From NCBI RefSeq assembly GCF_055900595.2, contig NZ_CM148325.1: a DNA stretch of 64,000 nt; one strand, 5' to 3'. Shown piece after piece: positions 13,845 through 19,800 of the stretch. Every line of letters starts with the position of its first letter. The stretch's first letter is position 1. Position numbers: made by a program.

Positions 13845-16800
13845 TCTGGCTGAAACCACACCCGGAAAGATTCTGGTGTTGTGCTACAACATTACCCTGG
13901 CCAGTTATCTGCGGGAATGCATTGAGGCCAGAGGGCTGGCGTCACGGGTTACGGTATCTCATTTTCACAGCTGGTGTGCCTCAATGGCAAAACGCCACGG
14001 TATTCAGGTGACGGCAGACAGAGAAGAATATCCTGAGAAATGCTTCAGTGCACTGGAAGAGGCCGTGAACAGCGGAAAAATCACCCAAACCGGATATGAT
14101 GCTGTACTGGTGGATGAAGGGCATGATTTTGACAGTCGCTGGCTGGCCCTGATTGCCCGTCTGTTTGATAACGCATCCCGTTCACTGCTCCTGATGTACG
14201 ATGATGCCCAGTCCATTTACCGGCGGGAGCGGGCCCTGAACTTTTCTCTGGCCAGTGTGGGGATTCAGGCACAGGGACGCACTTCTGTCCTGCCGGTCAA
14301 TTATCGTAATCCGAAACGCATTCTGCACTTTGCTTATGCATTCTCCCGCGAGTATTTTGAAAAACATCAGAACCGTGAAATACCACTTGTTCAGCCACAG
14401 GCAGGCGGTGAAGAGGGTACAGAGCCGGAAATCCTGCATTGTGCTTCTGAACGTGATGAAGCCAGACAGGTTGCAGACTGGCTGGAGAAGCGCCATGCCC
14501 TGTGTGGTCACTGGAGTGATATGGCTGTGCTGTGTCCGACAGAGCGTTCAGCGAAACAATTGCAGGACGTTATGACACAACGCGGGGTGCCTTTTGCCAC
14601 CTGTTTTGACAGGGAAGGCAAGAAGGCATACTCGCGACGTAAGGATGTGGTGCATTTACTGACATATCAGAGCAGCAAGGGGCTGGAGTTCCCGTATGTG
14701 GCGGTTATCAATGCGTCTTTCGTTCACTCTGGTGCAGCGGATGAGTCTGAAGTGATTCCGGTGCTTTATGTGGCGTTCACCCGGGCAACCCGCGAATTAC
14801 TGGTGACCTGTTACCGTGAAAACAGTATCAGCCGCCACCTTGAGGATTTTGCATAATACCAGACCATTTCTTTATTCCGGGCTTTCACCATACTGTTATT
14901 ATCAGGTTTATTTAATTCGCCATGAACCCGTTATTTAACGATATTCAGATGCGTCTTTTTTATCTGAACCACTCTCCGTACTCCTGGCACTGGAATGTCA
15001 GATTCAGACCTCAGGAAGCCGTATATATTGGCAGCGATACCTGTCATATCACCATTACCTGTAATCAGTCTGGTTTTCATTTAACCCGGGACGGACAACG
15101 GGTATTCACTGAGCGTTATATCAGAAACCTTAATGAGCTGTTACCGGTTCTGAAACGGCGGTGGGATGTGACACCGGCAATCATCCGCGCAGTGGAATAC
15201 CTTTCCCGGGTACCGGTATCACACTGATGTTCTTTCCGTAACTGTTAATCATGATTTAATACAGCAACATTGAATCTGCCGATGACTTCTGAAGTGAAAC
15301 TGAAAACCGGTGGTGACCCCCGGTCATTACCGGATTATGCTGCCCTGCGTGATGAAATCAGCAAACTGACCCACCCGGCACGCCCGGATGTGGACTGGCG
15401 TCATGTGGAGACGCTCTGCCTGCGTCTGTATGAACACAATGGCGTGGAATTACAGACAGCATCCTGGTACACCATCGCCCGGATGCATACAACAGGGTTA
15501 AGTGGCCTGAATGAAGGGCTGGCTCTGATTGTGGCGCTGACCCGGCATCACTGGTCAGTGATGTGGCCGCTGAATACACACGCCCGGCTGGAAATTATTA
15601 CCGGTCTGTTCAACCGTCTGCAAAAAACGCTCCGGGCCATGCCACCGGACGACCGTGACAACCTGCCCCTGCTGTATCAGACCGAAACATTTCTGAAGGC
15701 ACTGAGTGACACACTGGCCCGGCACGAACTTAAACAGAGCAGTAAAGTGGCTTTACCGGAAGCCATGGTGAAGGGATATATCACCCGTCTGGAAAATCAG
15801 CCAGTGCAGGACGAAGCGTCGTCTCCGGTAACCCTTCCTGCTCAGGCACTCCGGTCTGATGCTCCGGATGTACAGGGACATCAGCCCCTGCCGCACTCCC
15901 GTCTGGTGTATGTTGTTTCTGAAACAAAAACAGAGCCCACATCCTCCCTTCAAAACTCCCCGCCCACGTTTCTGAAACCGTTTGTGACTGGTGTCTGTGC
16001 GGCATTGCTGGCGGTCTGCGTGGCCATTCCGGGATGGCAGTATCTGGCACAGCCATCACCGGCAGAGCAGCAACTCAGGGCGCTGCTGACACCACCACCG
16101 GATGTGCTTTCAGCAGACCAGATGACACAGCTCAGCAGAACACCCTCACTGTTAAATCATGCGTCAGAGTGGATAACCCTTTCCGGTCAACAGATAACGC
16201 GACTGACAGAATTACCCCTGGCATACAACCTGCAGTGCAGTGCGCAGCTACTGCAGCAACTGATGGTACTTTTCCCCGACAATCCCCGGGTACAGGAAAT
16301 GGTGGATAACTGGCAGAAGAGCGTAAGGAGTCGTGCGCTCCCGGAAGAGGCGATGACGGGCTGGAATGAAGGCATGACCCGCTTACAGCAGCTGGCTGAA
16401 CGCCTGAACCGTCTGGATGAACAGCGGGGAAAATACATGACGGTCAGTGAACTGAAAACGGAGGTGTTTGGCATCATGCAGGCTTTTAACCGGCACATAC
16501 CGGCAGAAGAGCGGTTACGTCGCTATGATGAAGCCCGTAACCAGAATGGCAGTGAACAGCAACAAAAACAGATGGAAAATGCCCTGATGGAACTGTTGAA
16601 CCGCTACTATTTTTTAACACGGAATAGTTGTGTGGATATATGAGAAGATATTTAACCTTTTGCAAGGTAATTTCCCTAAGGTGCGATAGGGTACAGAATA
16701 TTCTTTATTCTAGGATGGTTTTATTTTGTATGTTGGCAATTTCAATGAATATTTTACATTTAAGTATGGAATAAGGAGTGTTGAATGAAGCTTTCATCAT

Positions 16801-19800
16801 TTTTTGTGGAAAACTTTAAATGTATCGGTAGAGAGGTACACATTAAAATAGATGATATTATTATTTTAATTGGGCAGAATAATGTAGGAAAATCAACAAT
16901 CCTTGATGCTTATGAGAAATTTGCTGCTCTTGGAAAAGAAAAGGTCTTAGATATTAGCCATTTTCATAATGAAGATGTTTCAAAGCCAGTGATCATGACA
17001 GGAGTATTTACAGATATTACTGTAGAAGATGAAACGGCAATAGGAAAAAAATGGAAGCACAATGATCCAGTTTATGGTGAGTGTATTAAGTTCAGATGGG
17101 TATGGAATGCACCCGGTGAGTCGGCTAAAAAAGAGGCATTTGATCCAACTAAAGGACAAGGTGAATTTGTAGCTGGTGGCTTGGGCGGGTTTGATAGCAT
17201 AATTAAAAGCCGTATTCCTAAGCCACTTCGAATTAAACCTGATGATTCAGTCCTGAAAACACAGGAGCTTATAATCGAAATATTGAAAAGTAATGTGAAG
17301 GAATACCTCAGTAATGGGCCTGATTCCAAGGCTGATGTGATAGCCAAAATTGAATCCCTAACAAGCGCTCTGGTTGAGTCATCTAAAGCAGAATTTGATC
17401 GATTGCTTGGTCGTATAACAGACAATATAGAATCGATTTTTCCAGGGGTTATTATGGAATTGGTTCCTCAGTCGAAAGATCCTATTGATGAGAAGATTAT
17501 CGCTTCAGCATCCTATTTAAAGGTTCGAAACCCGACTAGTCGTTCAACTATGCTTGAACTCCAAGGAACCGGGCTTAAGCGTTCTTTACTGTGGTCTGCA
17601 TTGTCAGTACTTTCGCAAGAAGGAAAAAGCAAAAAAGGTGATGTTGTCAAGGAGTGTAATATCCTGCTTATAGATGAGCCAGAGGCTTTTTTGCATCCAC
17701 CAACAATCCGTGGCGCACGAGAGGCTTTGTATACATTTGCAGCCAATAATCCTGGTTGGCAGGTAATGGCTACCACGCACTCTCCAGTATTCATCGATTT
17801 GTCGAAAGATCATACGACAATTATTCGGGTTGATAAAGATAGCCAGAACAAATACATCTCAACAAACGATATTGGGTTTGATAAGGATGAGAAAGTCAAT
17901 CTTAAAATTGTTCGAGCATGTAATCCAATGGTAAATGAGTTTTTTTTCTATAATAAAATTGTTCTTGTGGAGGGCCCTACTGAAAAAATTGTACTGAATC
18001 ATCTTCAGGATACTCTGGGGATAGAGATGCATGTAATCGATTGTCTTGGTAAAGGTAATATACCTATGTTTGTTAAAATTCTTAATCAGTTCGATGTTCC
18101 TTATGTTGTTATTCATGATTCTGACTCACCTAAAATCCGTCGTAAAGGAAAATATGTGAACAACGGGATGTGGACTATAAATACTTTGATTAGAAATGAA
18201 GTTGCTAAATCAAAAAAAGGACGTATTTTTACTCAGGTGCCGCACTTTGAAGGCGAATTTTTTGGCGAAACTCTTACCTCTGGTAAGGTATCAAATGTGC
18301 TCGAGGTTCTCCAGAACGTTACGGCTGAAGAATACACTCGCTTAATAAGCGTTTATAGCCGTATTTTAAATGACGCAGAAGAATCATTATTTACTGGGAC
18401 ACTTGAGTCTTTTATGGCTAAAATTAATGCATATACGGCAGATAAAACTGCATTAACAGATCCAGAGTTATGGGGATTATCGGGTTTATAAAATTCTCCA
18501 TAAGGGATTTTAAATCAATGAGTTTATTTTTATGCAGATAGAGTCTTTGAGTGAATTGAAATATTAGTACTGTCGACCTGCTGTTTTTGTAATATGATGG
18601 ATTTGGTAGGGGGATGTAATTTTTGTGATAGTGGTTAATATTAAAATGTTTTAGTGTGGATTTTTAGAGTAAAATGATTTAAGTAGTGTTCATATAAAGC
18701 AAGTTTGTTTTTTTTGGGGGGGTGATATTGATAGTAATGTGTGATATATTTTATTGAAATTATTTGTTGTGTGTTGTGAGAATAACAGAGTGTGATTGAT
18801 AAGTATGACGTAAAGAATGAATTATTGGTTCGCTGTATCAGAACAGGTAGGTTATGTTTTATTGACGTTATTTCTAACGAAACTAATTAACTCTGAGTTG
18901 CTTTTGCGTTATCGTATATTTGATCGTTTTTCGTTATAAGAGAAAAGTTTTAGATATATAATTCTTTGAGTGATGTTGAAGTTGGTTTTATCTGTCAGGA
19001 AGTATTGACTATATATGAACATACTCAACGATGCTGCAACGAAAAGAAAATTACAACTGTCCAGTTAGGCAGGAAACTTAATGGCAGGTATGCAGATATG
19101 ATTGCTGAGTTAAAAGAAACAGTAGAGATGAGGGGGGAGGGGTAATTTCTTTTGAGATGGATATATTGAATTCTTTTAATGATGCGGATGAATATCACGG
19201 ACGTGTTAAACTGGAATTGGATATACCTGCTTCAGATATATTATATTGCCATGATTTTATTGATTCAAAACATGTAAACTCCTGGCTGGTTGAACCACAT
19301 GAGTGGGTGGTTATTAATCGTTCTCTTACTGGGATTGTTACAGTGCCAGTATCAGCAATAAAAATCTCTTATTGAAAAAATTATGTATGTAACTTACTTT
19401 ATATATATAAGGGTAAAAACAGTCCCGGTAATAATTAAATATTATTTAATGTTTATTGCTATGTATTGGAGATATAAGCGGGTTTCTTTTGCATAAAGTA
19501 AAAATAAATGAATGATAATTTTTTAACGGAGAAAGTCCTTACTGGAGAGAATGTTCTGCGTGCAGCAATTGCTCGTATTGAGTGGGTTTTTGAAACATTT
19601 CCATCAGTTTGTCTCTCTTTTTCCGGTGGTAAAGATTCCACCGTGCTTTTCCATCTTTTGGCTGATGTGGCCCGCAGGAAAAAACGTCGTTTCTCTGTAC
19701 TGTTCATTGACTGGGAGGCTCAGTACCAGTGCACCATTGAACATATTCAGAAGATGCGGGAAATGTACCATGATGTGACGGATACCTTTTACTGGGTGGC

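What the first reader, a model, noticed from the sequence alone, without database searches (positions are those of the whole stretch)
16785..18491. Stand-alone AT-rich OLD-family ATPase-Toprim nuclease with no partner gene
All OLD signatures are present (Walker A/B, H-loop, Toprim) but there is no downstream helicase (as in Gabija) and no DUF4435 partner (as in PARIS). It is followed instead by ~1 kb of AT-rich non-coding DNA. It is probably a class 1 OLD defence gene acquired as a separate low-GC cassette.
Basis: partly seen in the sequence, partly recalled or inferred. Interest (0 to 1): 0.45.

Follow-up and report, generated by a model that had tools for sequence, protein, structure and literature searches.

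The report
Stand-alone OLD nuclease in defence hotspot
This is an intact, solitary OLD-type ATP-driven nuclease gene, a known kind of anti-phage defence, dropped as a low-GC cassette into a variable slot of an E. coli genomic island; the "empty" DNA behind it is mostly a dead, unrelated neighbour gene, so the finding is real but fairly ordinary.

Summary
The ORF at 16785-18491 (+, 568 aa) is real and is an OLD-family ATPase-Toprim nuclease. It matches Pfam AAA_15 and OLD-like_TOPRIM and the PADLOC Old model (1.5e-78). Its best solved-structure and fold match is the Class 1 Thermus OLD (6P74). All catalytic residues validated by mutation in P2 Old are conserved.

No helicase, DUF4435 protein or reverse transcriptase is adjacent. 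Orthologues (47-87% identity) in 11 different gene neighbourhoods from at least eight taxa share no neighbour, and DNA homology to them stops at the ORF ends. Stand-alone Class 1 status is therefore supported.

The cassette idea is also supported. A 2,259-bp segment (16583-18841, 36% GC against about 50% in the flanks) replaces 259 bp found in 327 E. coli genomes that lack OLD. Only 1 of 5,426 complete genomes carries it.

One correction is needed. The roughly 1 kb downstream is not all non-coding: 18792-19375 is a pseudogene of a 214-aa gene ("hyp214") with four frame-breaking deletions. That gene is a conserved flank of the slot, not an OLD partner. It occurs without OLD, and in Serratia it sits behind a Kiwa system.

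Verdict: a new member of a known kind. Its substrate (DNA or tRNA) and trigger are unknown.

The parts
15270..16643 (+). ImpA_N/VasL (TssA-like) gene, the conserved left flank of the variable slot. Its last 20 codons (16583-16643) already belong to the strain-specific segment.
   Evidence: Pfam VasL 3.2e-37 and ImpA_N 1.6e-17. Homology to OLD-less strains ends at 16582. Each cargo variant has its own C-terminal sequence.
16583..18841 (+). Strain-specific replaced segment (2,259 bp, 35.9% GC) that carries the OLD gene. OLD-less E. coli have 259 bp here.
   Evidence: BLAST breakpoints against L003/L004. 327 genomes carry the OLD-less junction. Only SC418 shares this segment among 5,426 genomes.
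16644..16784 (+). AT-rich upstream spacer (30.5% GC). It holds an AAGGAG ribosome-binding site at 16773-16778 and a weak sigma-70-like match at 16733-16760.
   Evidence: The number of promoter-like matches is no higher than in shuffled sequence, so the promoter is not established.
16785..18491 (+). OLD-family gene (568 aa). It has an N-terminal ABC-type ATPase with an inserted helical/dimerisation region (about aa 1-375), a Toprim nuclease domain (about aa 387-500) and a C-terminal helical tail (aa 501-568).
   Evidence: Pfam and PADLOC matches. PDB sequence hit 6p74 at 1.7e-17. AF2 model with pLDDT 78, best fold hit 6p74 at E 4e-22. Catalytic residues invariant. dN/dS 0.05-0.08 against orthologues.
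18492..18791 (.). 300-bp AT-rich spacer (28.7% GC) that is genuinely non-coding.
   Evidence: Stops in all six frames. No Rfam match in this spacer; the one sub-threshold hit of the scan lies inside the OLD ORF. No terminator-like hairpin, fold z-score -0.68. Found only in SC418 among E. coli genomes.
18792..19375 (+). Pseudogene of the 214-aa 'hyp214' gene, the right flank of the slot. It is not part of the OLD system. Deletions: 56 bp after 18847, 2 bp after 18931, 2 bp after 18953, 1 bp after 19138.
   Evidence: Alignment to the intact CFT073 gene. RefSeq marks it 'frameshifted' in SC418. tblastn finds it in two fragments.

Best explanation
The gene encodes a solitary (Class 1) OLD-family enzyme. 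An ABC-type ATPase head, probably dimerising through its inserted helical region, controls a C-terminal Toprim nuclease that uses two metal ions.

By analogy with the three Class 1 proteins that have phage phenotypes (P2 Old, Vibrio cholerae Vc OLD, E. coli YbjD), it most likely acts alone as an abortive-infection-type anti-phage gene. In that model a phage-dependent cue licenses ATP-dependent cleavage of a double-stranded nucleic acid. The target would be either replicating DNA (nicking or exonuclease, as for Vc OLD and Ts OLD) or the anticodon stems of host tRNAs (as for P2 Old). Either would stop phage production.

It reached this E. coli lineage as a one-gene, low-GC cassette. The cassette was placed, probably by recombination, into a variable cargo slot between an ImpA_N/VasL gene and the hyp214-ibrAB module of a tRNA-Phe genomic island.

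- Shown here: domain architecture, catalytic residues, purifying selection, solitary state, and the insertion polymorphism with its boundaries.
- Inferred: defence function, oligomeric state, abortive-infection outcome, and the recombination route.
- Unknown: trigger, substrate, and whether the gene is expressed.
For: - **Family and motifs:**. The window residues K36, D297, H304, H332, E396, E400, D445 and D447 align with P2 Old K37, D299, H306, H332, E398, E402, D453 and D455. Mutating each of those abolishes P2 Old killing (PMC7049728).
- **Fold:** the best match is the Class 1 Ts OLD, 6p74, at E 4.3e-22.
- **Functional constraint:** dN/dS is 0.078 against the Salmonella orthologue and 0.047 against the L026 orthologue.
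- **Solitary state:** there is no conserved neighbour in 11 orthologue contexts. tblastx of 2.5-kb flanks finds nothing shared across genera, apart from a Tn3-resolvase remnant shared by Photorhabdus and Yersinia.
- **Cassette:** the breakpoints are at 16583 and 18841. 327 genomes have the OLD-less junction and 1 of 5,426 has this OLD. The gene's GC content is below the host flanks in all nine host taxa examined.
- **Variable slot:** the same position holds Kiwa in Serratia, a hypothetical gene, a KAP NTPase and QatC/QatD in E. coli 32F4, a cytosine methyltransferase plus ATPase in E. coli 536, and a different OLD (28% identity) in CFT073.
- **Defence role of Class 1 OLDs:** PMC12392090, PMC12445682 and PMC13261556.
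Against: - No experiment bears on this protein. It is only 24% identical to P2 Old, and its relation to Vc OLD was not measured.
- No convincing promoter or terminator was found, so expression is unproven. Such AT-rich DNA is often silenced in E. coli (background knowledge).
- The first metal-B ligand is His/Asn/Asp in this subfamily (H487 here), against Ser in Ts OLD and Asp in P2 Old. The conserved Lys (K501) lies 14 residues after it rather than 9. The active-site geometry was not checked in 3D.
- YbjD shows that a Class 1 OLD phenotype need not require the Toprim domain.
- The archaeal OLD Cran1 has a non-defence role.
Confidence: 0.78

Rival explanations
1. Degraded two-gene system. On this view OLD originally worked with the downstream 214-aa gene, which has since decayed, leaving OLD as a remnant or orphan.
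For: - A decayed gene lies directly downstream on the same strand.
- In CFT073-type genomes (133) a different OLD homologue sits immediately upstream of an intact hyp214.
Against: - hyp214 is intact and directly follows VasL with no OLD in 327 E. coli genomes.
- Its Serratia homologue follows Kiwa.
- It is absent from all OLD loci outside E. coli (tblastn).
- The two OLDs next to it are only 28% identical to each other, while hyp214 itself is about 94% identical between the genomes. The recombination boundary therefore falls between the two genes.
- The 87% OLD orthologue in L026 is followed by an unrelated gene.
- The window OLD ORF is full-length, all its catalytic residues are intact, and its orthologues evolve under purifying selection, although hyp214 is dead here.
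Confidence: 0.05
2. Split Gabija-like system. On this view OLD cooperates with the NERD+UvrD helicase encoded 1.9 kb upstream (13069-14856).
For: A UvrD-family helicase lies on the same strand and matches GajB models at up to 3e-21.
Against: - Its best PADLOC match is a separate NERD+UvrD candidate family (C3a187, 2.5e-139), not GajB.
- Two genes separate it from OLD, and it lies upstream, whereas GajB lies immediately downstream of GajA.
- The helicase, with the same neighbours, is present in strains without OLD (L003, L004, L012).
- No helicase accompanies OLD orthologues in other genera.
Confidence: 0.03
3. Silent passenger. On this view the gene is intact but not expressed or not useful in this host: a recently acquired, xenogeneically silenced cassette with no current function.
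For: - No promoter or terminator stands out above chance.
- GC content is 28-38% in a roughly 50% GC host.
- The gene is very rare in E. coli, 1 of 5,426 genomes.
- Both neighbours are inactivated: the hyp214 pseudogene, and ibrA split by an IS3-family element.
- Vc OLD is weakly expressed in its native locus.
Against: - The ORF is full length with every catalytic residue intact, and it differs by 1 nt from the SC418 copy.
- A strong ribosome-binding site is present.
- Long-term purifying selection acts on orthologues.
- This rival concerns activity in this strain only, not what the gene is.
Confidence: 0.14

Closest known systems
Thermus scotoductus OLD (Ts OLD, PDB 6P74), the structural archetype of Class 1
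   Same: It is the best sequence match among solved structures (1.7e-17) and the best fold match (E 4.3e-22). It is a single gene with the same order of ATPase, inserted helical domain and Toprim. The metal-A triad E/D/D and the metal-B Glu align.
   Different: Only about 17% identity over the fold alignment. The window protein has a longer C-terminal helical tail (79 residues after the metal-B Glu, against 48). It has His rather than Ser at the first metal-B position. Ts OLD has no known phage phenotype.
Phage P2 Old
   Same: A solitary, AT-rich lysogenic-conversion-type gene on a mobile element. All residues validated by mutation are conserved. It matches the same PADLOC 'Old' model.
   Different: 24% identity over aa 1-447. 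P2 Old has an 86-residue stretch between the DxD motif and the metal-B motif, against 42 here. P2 Old cleaves tRNA anticodon stems and responds to RecBCD inhibition. Neither property can be inferred for this protein.
Vibrio cholerae Vc OLD
   Same: A bacterial Class 1 OLD carried on an integrative defence element next to other defence genes. It gives abortive-infection-type protection that depends on the ATPase and nuclease residues.
   Different: Vc OLD is a DNA nickase with a dedicated phage inhibitor (Oad1). The published clade assignment of the window protein is unknown.
E. coli YbjD (OldB)
   Same: A solitary OLD gene in E. coli with mild anti-phage phenotypes on induction.
   Different: YbjD is a core-genome DUF2813 protein. 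The window protein matches DUF2813 only over its first 53 residues (E 2.3e-5), and it is a rare accessory gene.
GajA of Gabija (Class 2), Retron-Eco8 OLD (Class 3) and AriA/AriB of PARIS (Class 4)
   Same: The same ATPase-Toprim fold (fold hits at E 1e-19 to 1e-14; PADLOC GajA/AriA hits).
   Different: The required partners are absent: there is no adjacent GajB, no reverse transcriptase or ncRNA, and no DUF4435 Toprim protein.

Membership tests
OLD family (ATPase-Toprim nucleases) | N-terminal ABC-type ATPase with Walker A, Walker B, D-loop and H-loop | tested here: met
   The residues are G30-x4-G35-K36-S37, D297-E298, H304 and H332. All are invariant in 62 homologues and align with P2 Old K37, D299, H306 and H332 (PMC7049728).
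OLD family (ATPase-Toprim nucleases) | C-terminal Toprim domain with metal-A (E, DxD) and metal-B acidic ligands plus a conserved Lys/Arg | tested here: met
   PF20469 matches at 1.7e-15. E396, D445 and D447 (metal A) and E400 and E489 (metal B) are invariant, and K501 is conserved in at least 90% of sequences. The first metal-B position is H487 (H/N/D in the subfamily). The 3D geometry was not inspected.
OLD family (ATPase-Toprim nucleases) | ATP hydrolysis and metal-dependent nuclease activity | not testable with these tools
   This requires purified protein.
Class 1 OLD (solitary) | [quoted passage not shown] | tested here: met
   Downstream lie a 300-bp spacer, the hyp214 pseudogene and ibrA. 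The only helicase is 1.9 kb upstream, and it is present with the same neighbours in strains that lack OLD.
Class 1 OLD (solitary) | Solitary state conserved among orthologues (no recurrent partner gene) | tested here: met
   11 orthologue contexts share no neighbour. tblastx and tblastn of the flanks are negative across genera.
Class 1 OLD (solitary) | Class 1-type C-terminal region (no Class 2 helical domain supplying the catalytic Lys) | tested here: inconclusive
   The best fold hit is the Class 1 Ts OLD, but GajA scores almost as well (4e-22 against 9e-20). The window protein has its own 68-residue helical tail.
Class 1 OLD (solitary) | Anti-phage activity conferred by the single gene | not testable with these tools
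   Shown for P2 Old, Vc OLD and YbjD only.
Gabija (Class 2 OLD, GajA+GajB) | GajB helicase encoded directly next to GajA | tested here: not met
   No orthologue has one either.
PARIS (AriA+AriB) | Separate or fused DUF4435-type Toprim partner AriB | tested here: not met
   No DUF4435 hit appeared in any neighbouring ORF scanned. The Toprim domain here is the OLD-like PF20469 type, fused to the ATPase.
Retron type I-B (Class 3 OLD) | Adjacent reverse transcriptase and msr/msd ncRNA | tested here: not met
   No reverse-transcriptase domain was found in the flanking ORFs. The Rfam scan of 16300-19700 gave no retron RNA. The NCBIfam retron Eco8 effector model scores 41 bits against a cut-off of 250.

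The most novel reading that the evidence does not exclude
This protein may represent an uncharacterised, unusually well-conserved subfamily of solitary OLD enzymes. The subfamily shows at least 47-55% identity over the full length across Proteobacteria, Leptospira, Bacteroidota and temperate Rhizobium phages. It is lower in GC than its flanking DNA in all nine host taxa examined (only marginally in Leptospira). It has its own conserved C-terminal helical tail and a His/Asn/Asp variant at one metal-B position. Such a subfamily could have a trigger or substrate different from P2 Old (tRNA) and Vc OLD (DNA nicks). It appears to travel as a bare ORF that is swapped into a cross-genus defence slot bounded by a VasL gene and an ADP-ribosyltransferase-like gene.
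Probability: 0.25. Interest if true: 0.45.

Novelty: new member of a known kind. Interest (0 to 1): 0.27.

Why it matters
Solitary Class 1 OLD genes are rare (0.45% of genomes, according to the Vc OLD paper). Only three have any phage phenotype, and the three disagree on substrate (DNA or tRNA) and on whether the Toprim domain is needed.

A natural E. coli representative of a broadly conserved but untested subfamily gives a convenient fourth test case in the best-equipped host. It comes with exactly mapped cassette boundaries and naturally OLD-less sister strains.

It also shows that Class 1 OLDs can sit inside defence islands, contrary to an earlier generalisation in the 2023 review. Beyond that, it is an expected kind of gene in an expected kind of place.

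Tried and rejected
1. **hyp214 as a partner.** Rejected on its distribution.
2. **The NERD-UvrD helicase as a GajB-like partner.** Rejected because it occurs with the same neighbours in strains that lack OLD.
3. **A hidden or decayed partner in the 300-bp spacer or in orthologue flanks.**
   - Six-frame translation shows only stops.
   - tblastx of 2.5-kb flanks is negative across genera.
   - tblastn with the gene downstream of OLD in L026 is negative everywhere.
4. **A direct repeat of the VasL 3' end flanking the cassette, as an att-like footprint.** Local alignment scores were no better than for shuffled sequence. The apparent similarity in the MAFFT alignment is not significant for window 18496-18800.
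5. **A structured RNA or terminator after OLD.** There was no Rfam match in the spacer; the only hit of the scan (S15 leader, E 0.19, below threshold) lies inside the OLD ORF. The fold z-score was -0.68, and no terminator-like site was found downstream.
6. **A promoter call.** The number of sigma-70-like matches equals the chance expectation, so none is claimed.
7. **Literature search for ibrA/ibrB.** It returned only retina papers.
8. **Function of hyp214 by sequence.** There were no Pfam, PADLOC or NCBIfam hits. Only a weak fold signal was found.

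
Full report
**1. The observation**

An AAGGAG ribosome-binding site lies six bases upstream.

Chance does not explain it. Pfam gives AAA_15 at 1.2e-29, OLD-like_TOPRIM at 1.7e-15 and AAA_21 at 5.5e-14. The PADLOC 'Old' model scores 1.5e-78 over residues 1-454.

Among solved structures, the best sequence match is the Class 1 OLD of Thermus scotoductus (6p74, 1.7e-17), followed by GajA. An AlphaFold model built on 62 homologues has mean pLDDT 78 and pTM 0.71. Its best fold match is again 6p74 (E 4.3e-22), then GajA and the retron-Eco8 OLD.

**2. Catalytic residues**

The residues found are:
- Walker A G30-x4-G35-K36-S37
- Walker B D297-E298
- D-loop H304
- H-loop H332
- Toprim E396, E400, D445-x-D447 and E489

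All of these residues are invariant across the 62-sequence alignment, which includes P2 Old. K501 is conserved in at least 90% of sequences.

The residues align with P2 Old K37, D299, H306, H332, E398, E402, D453 and D455. Mutation of each of those abolishes P2 Old toxicity. They also align with Ts OLD E377, D431 and D433 (PMC7049728; alignment).

One detail differs. The first metal-B ligand is His, Asn or Asp in this subfamily (H487 here), against Ser in Ts OLD and Asp in P2 Old. The conserved Lys lies 14 residues after it rather than 9. I could not inspect the model coordinates, so the geometry is untested.

Comparison with the Salmonella and metagenomic orthologues gives dN/dS of 0.078 and 0.047. 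The protein is therefore maintained by purifying selection.

**3. The downstream kilobase**

This is only partly right.

RefSeq annotates a 'frameshifted hypothetical protein' at this position in the near-identical strain SC418. CFT073 carries the intact gene, 214 aa, here called hyp214.

Alignment places the pseudogene at window 18792-19375. It has deletions of 56 bp after 18847, 2 bp after 18931, 2 bp after 18953 and 1 bp after 19138.

The truly intergenic parts are 18492-18791 (300 bp, 28.7% GC) and 19376-19507 (132 bp, 22.7% GC). The 300-bp spacer has these properties:
- It has stops in all six frames.
- It has no Rfam match; the one sub-threshold hit of the 16300-19700 scan (S15 leader, E 0.19) lies inside the OLD ORF.
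- It has no terminator-like hairpin.
- It has no similarity to any E. coli genome except SC418.

**4. Is the decayed gene a partner?**

hyp214 lies next to an OLD gene in two arrangements: the window type, and a CFT073 type found in 133 genomes. The CFT073 OLD is N-terminally truncated beside an IS3 element and shares only 28% identity with the window protein.

Four results argue against partnership:
- 327 E. coli genomes have hyp214 intact directly after the VasL gene, with no OLD at all.
- A 64%-identical homologue in Serratia marcescens lies in the same chromosomal neighbourhood (T6SS genes, VasL, then integrase, speC and mltC). There it sits behind KwaA/KwaB, a Kiwa system.
- tblastn with hyp214 finds nothing in the Salmonella, Photorhabdus, Yersinia, Pseudomonas, Burkholderia, Leptospira or Flavobacteriales OLD loci.
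- An 87%-identical OLD on a metagenomic contig sits after a Serratia-like VasL and an HTH_35 gene. It is followed by an unrelated Cys/His-rich gene, not by hyp214.

hyp214 is therefore the conserved right flank of a variable slot. Its decay here is incidental.

**5. Solitary status**

Orthologues at 47-87% identity form a large full-length family: 731 hits at E below 1e-20 among the 8,000 candidates scored. I inspected 11 distinct neighbourhoods. None has a UvrD helicase, a DUF4435 protein or a reverse transcriptase beside the gene, and no gene recurs.

tblastx of 2.5 kb on each side finds nothing shared between genera, with one exception. A Tn3-type resolvase (or its remnant) lies upstream in both Photorhabdus and Yersinia, which points to a transposon vehicle there.

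In two temperate Rhizobium phages a 52% orthologue sits between attL and the integrase gene. This is the classic lysogenic-conversion position, comparable to old in P2.

The NERD+UvrD helicase 1.9 kb upstream of the window gene belongs to a different PADLOC candidate family (C3a187, 2.5e-139). It is present with identical neighbours in strains that lack OLD.

The context criteria for Class 1 are met. The criteria for Gabija, PARIS and retron systems are tested and not met.

**6. Cassette and slot**

The window matches OLD-less strains at about 92% identity up to 16582 and again from 18842. Between these points, 2,259 bp replace 259 bp.

The replaced segment includes the last 20 codons of the VasL gene, whose C-terminus differs between cargo variants. 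It also includes the 5' part of hyp214, which is 75% identical to CFT073 there against 94% further on.

DNA similarity to the Salmonella and metagenomic orthologues covers only 16770-18494 and 16770-18474 respectively, that is, the ORF plus about 15 bp.

The gene is 37.6% GC (GC3 29.7%) against about 50% in the flanks. In all nine host taxa examined it is less GC-rich than its surroundings, for example 45% against 63% in Pseudomonas and 49% against 65% in Burkholderia, though only marginally so in Leptospira (32.1% against 33.2%).

Only one of 5,426 complete E. coli genomes carries it.

The position after VasL holds other cargo elsewhere:
- a hypothetical gene, a KAP NTPase and QatC/QatD in strain 32F4
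- a cytosine methyltransferase plus a large ATPase in strain 536
- a truncated Mokosh MkoC plus the other OLD in CFT073
- Kiwa in Serratia

The window island also carries:
- CdiB/CdiA genes
- a PD-Lambda-1 homologue (5.5e-89)
- a type I restriction-modification system
- an integrase next to tRNA-Phe

So this Class 1 OLD lies in a defence island, as Vc OLD does. That runs against the generalisation in the 2023 review.

**7. Mechanism**

What is shown is the architecture, the intact catalytic set and the solitary state.

What is inferred comes from the characterised Class 1 proteins. P2 Old needs ATP hydrolysis to make two cuts in tRNA anticodon stems and is unleashed when RecBCD is inhibited. 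Vc OLD nicks DNA, blocks phage genome replication, depends on its ATPase and nuclease residues, and behaves as abortive infection. Ts OLD is an exonuclease and nickase. YbjD needs its ATPase but not its Toprim domain.

The most likely reading is an ATP-gated Toprim nuclease that cuts a double-stranded nucleic acid after a phage cue. With 24% identity to P2 Old, I cannot choose between a DNA and a tRNA substrate. Expression in this strain is unproven, because promoter-like matches are at chance level.

**8. Verdict**

The description of the downstream DNA needs correcting.

This is a new member of a known kind. It belongs to an untested but widespread subfamily, and it sits in a well-delimited cargo slot. 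Interest is modest.

Noticed in passing
[not shown]
   Followed up: partly
window 16583-18841 and the same position in L003, L004, L011, L012, L002, L024 and L026: The position right after the ImpA_N/VasL gene is a variable cargo slot shared between E. coli and Serratia-like genomes. It is empty in some genomes. In others it holds OLD (two unrelated alleles), Kiwa, a hypothetical gene with a KAP NTPase and QatC/QatD, a cytosine methyltransferase with an ATPase, or a Mokosh remnant. The VasL C-terminus differs with each cargo.
   Followed up: partly
window 20438-21689: An IS3-family element (orfA 20475-20813, orfB 20840-21658) splits the PAPS-reductase-like ibrA gene. ibrA is intact in SC418. 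Both genes just downstream of OLD (hyp214 and ibrA) are therefore inactivated in this strain.
   Followed up: partly
window 11709-12875 and 13069-14856: Two further defence candidates lie upstream. One is a T5orf172/GIY-YIG protein matching PD-Lambda-1 (5.5e-89). The other is a NERD+UvrD helicase matching PADLOC candidate C3a187 (2.5e-139). Both are also present in strains that lack OLD.
   Followed up: partly
window 15270-16643: The ImpA_N/VasL (TssA-like) ORF is intact here (457 aa, TTG start), although the window has no T6SS cluster next to it. RefSeq annotates the same gene in SC418 and other strains as two or three fragments, including a spurious 'POTRA domain' piece.
   Followed up: no
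window 3986-10149, 24877-30774 and 48447-49889: The island also carries CdiB/CdiA contact-dependent inhibition genes and a type I restriction-modification system (hsdR, hsdM, hsdS). It ends at a tyrosine integrase next to tRNA-Phe (49814-49889, minus strand). Beyond about 24 kb the island's content differs from that of SC418.
   Followed up: no
L008:5346-5900 (Photorhabdus) and L010, about 5560-5975 (Yersinia): The OLD orthologues in Photorhabdus and Yersinia are preceded by a Tn3-family resolvase gene, or an uncalled remnant of one. The remnant shows 80% amino-acid identity over 113 codons. This suggests the gene travels as transposon cargo in those genera.
   Followed up: partly
L029:3501-5199 (Rhizobium phage RHph_Y3_56_1): A 52% orthologue in two temperate Rhizobium phages lies between attL and the integrase gene. 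It is annotated as two ORFs (ATPase and Toprim), so it is either split by a frameshift or a natural two-piece variant.
   Followed up: no
L026:4050-4859: On the metagenomic contig, the 87% OLD orthologue is followed 223 bp later by an unannotated gene rich in Cys and His (CPCC...HLHEHHDH...CSDCN). It has no Pfam hit and could be an HNH-like or zinc-binding protein. It is not found beside any other OLD locus.
   Followed up: partly
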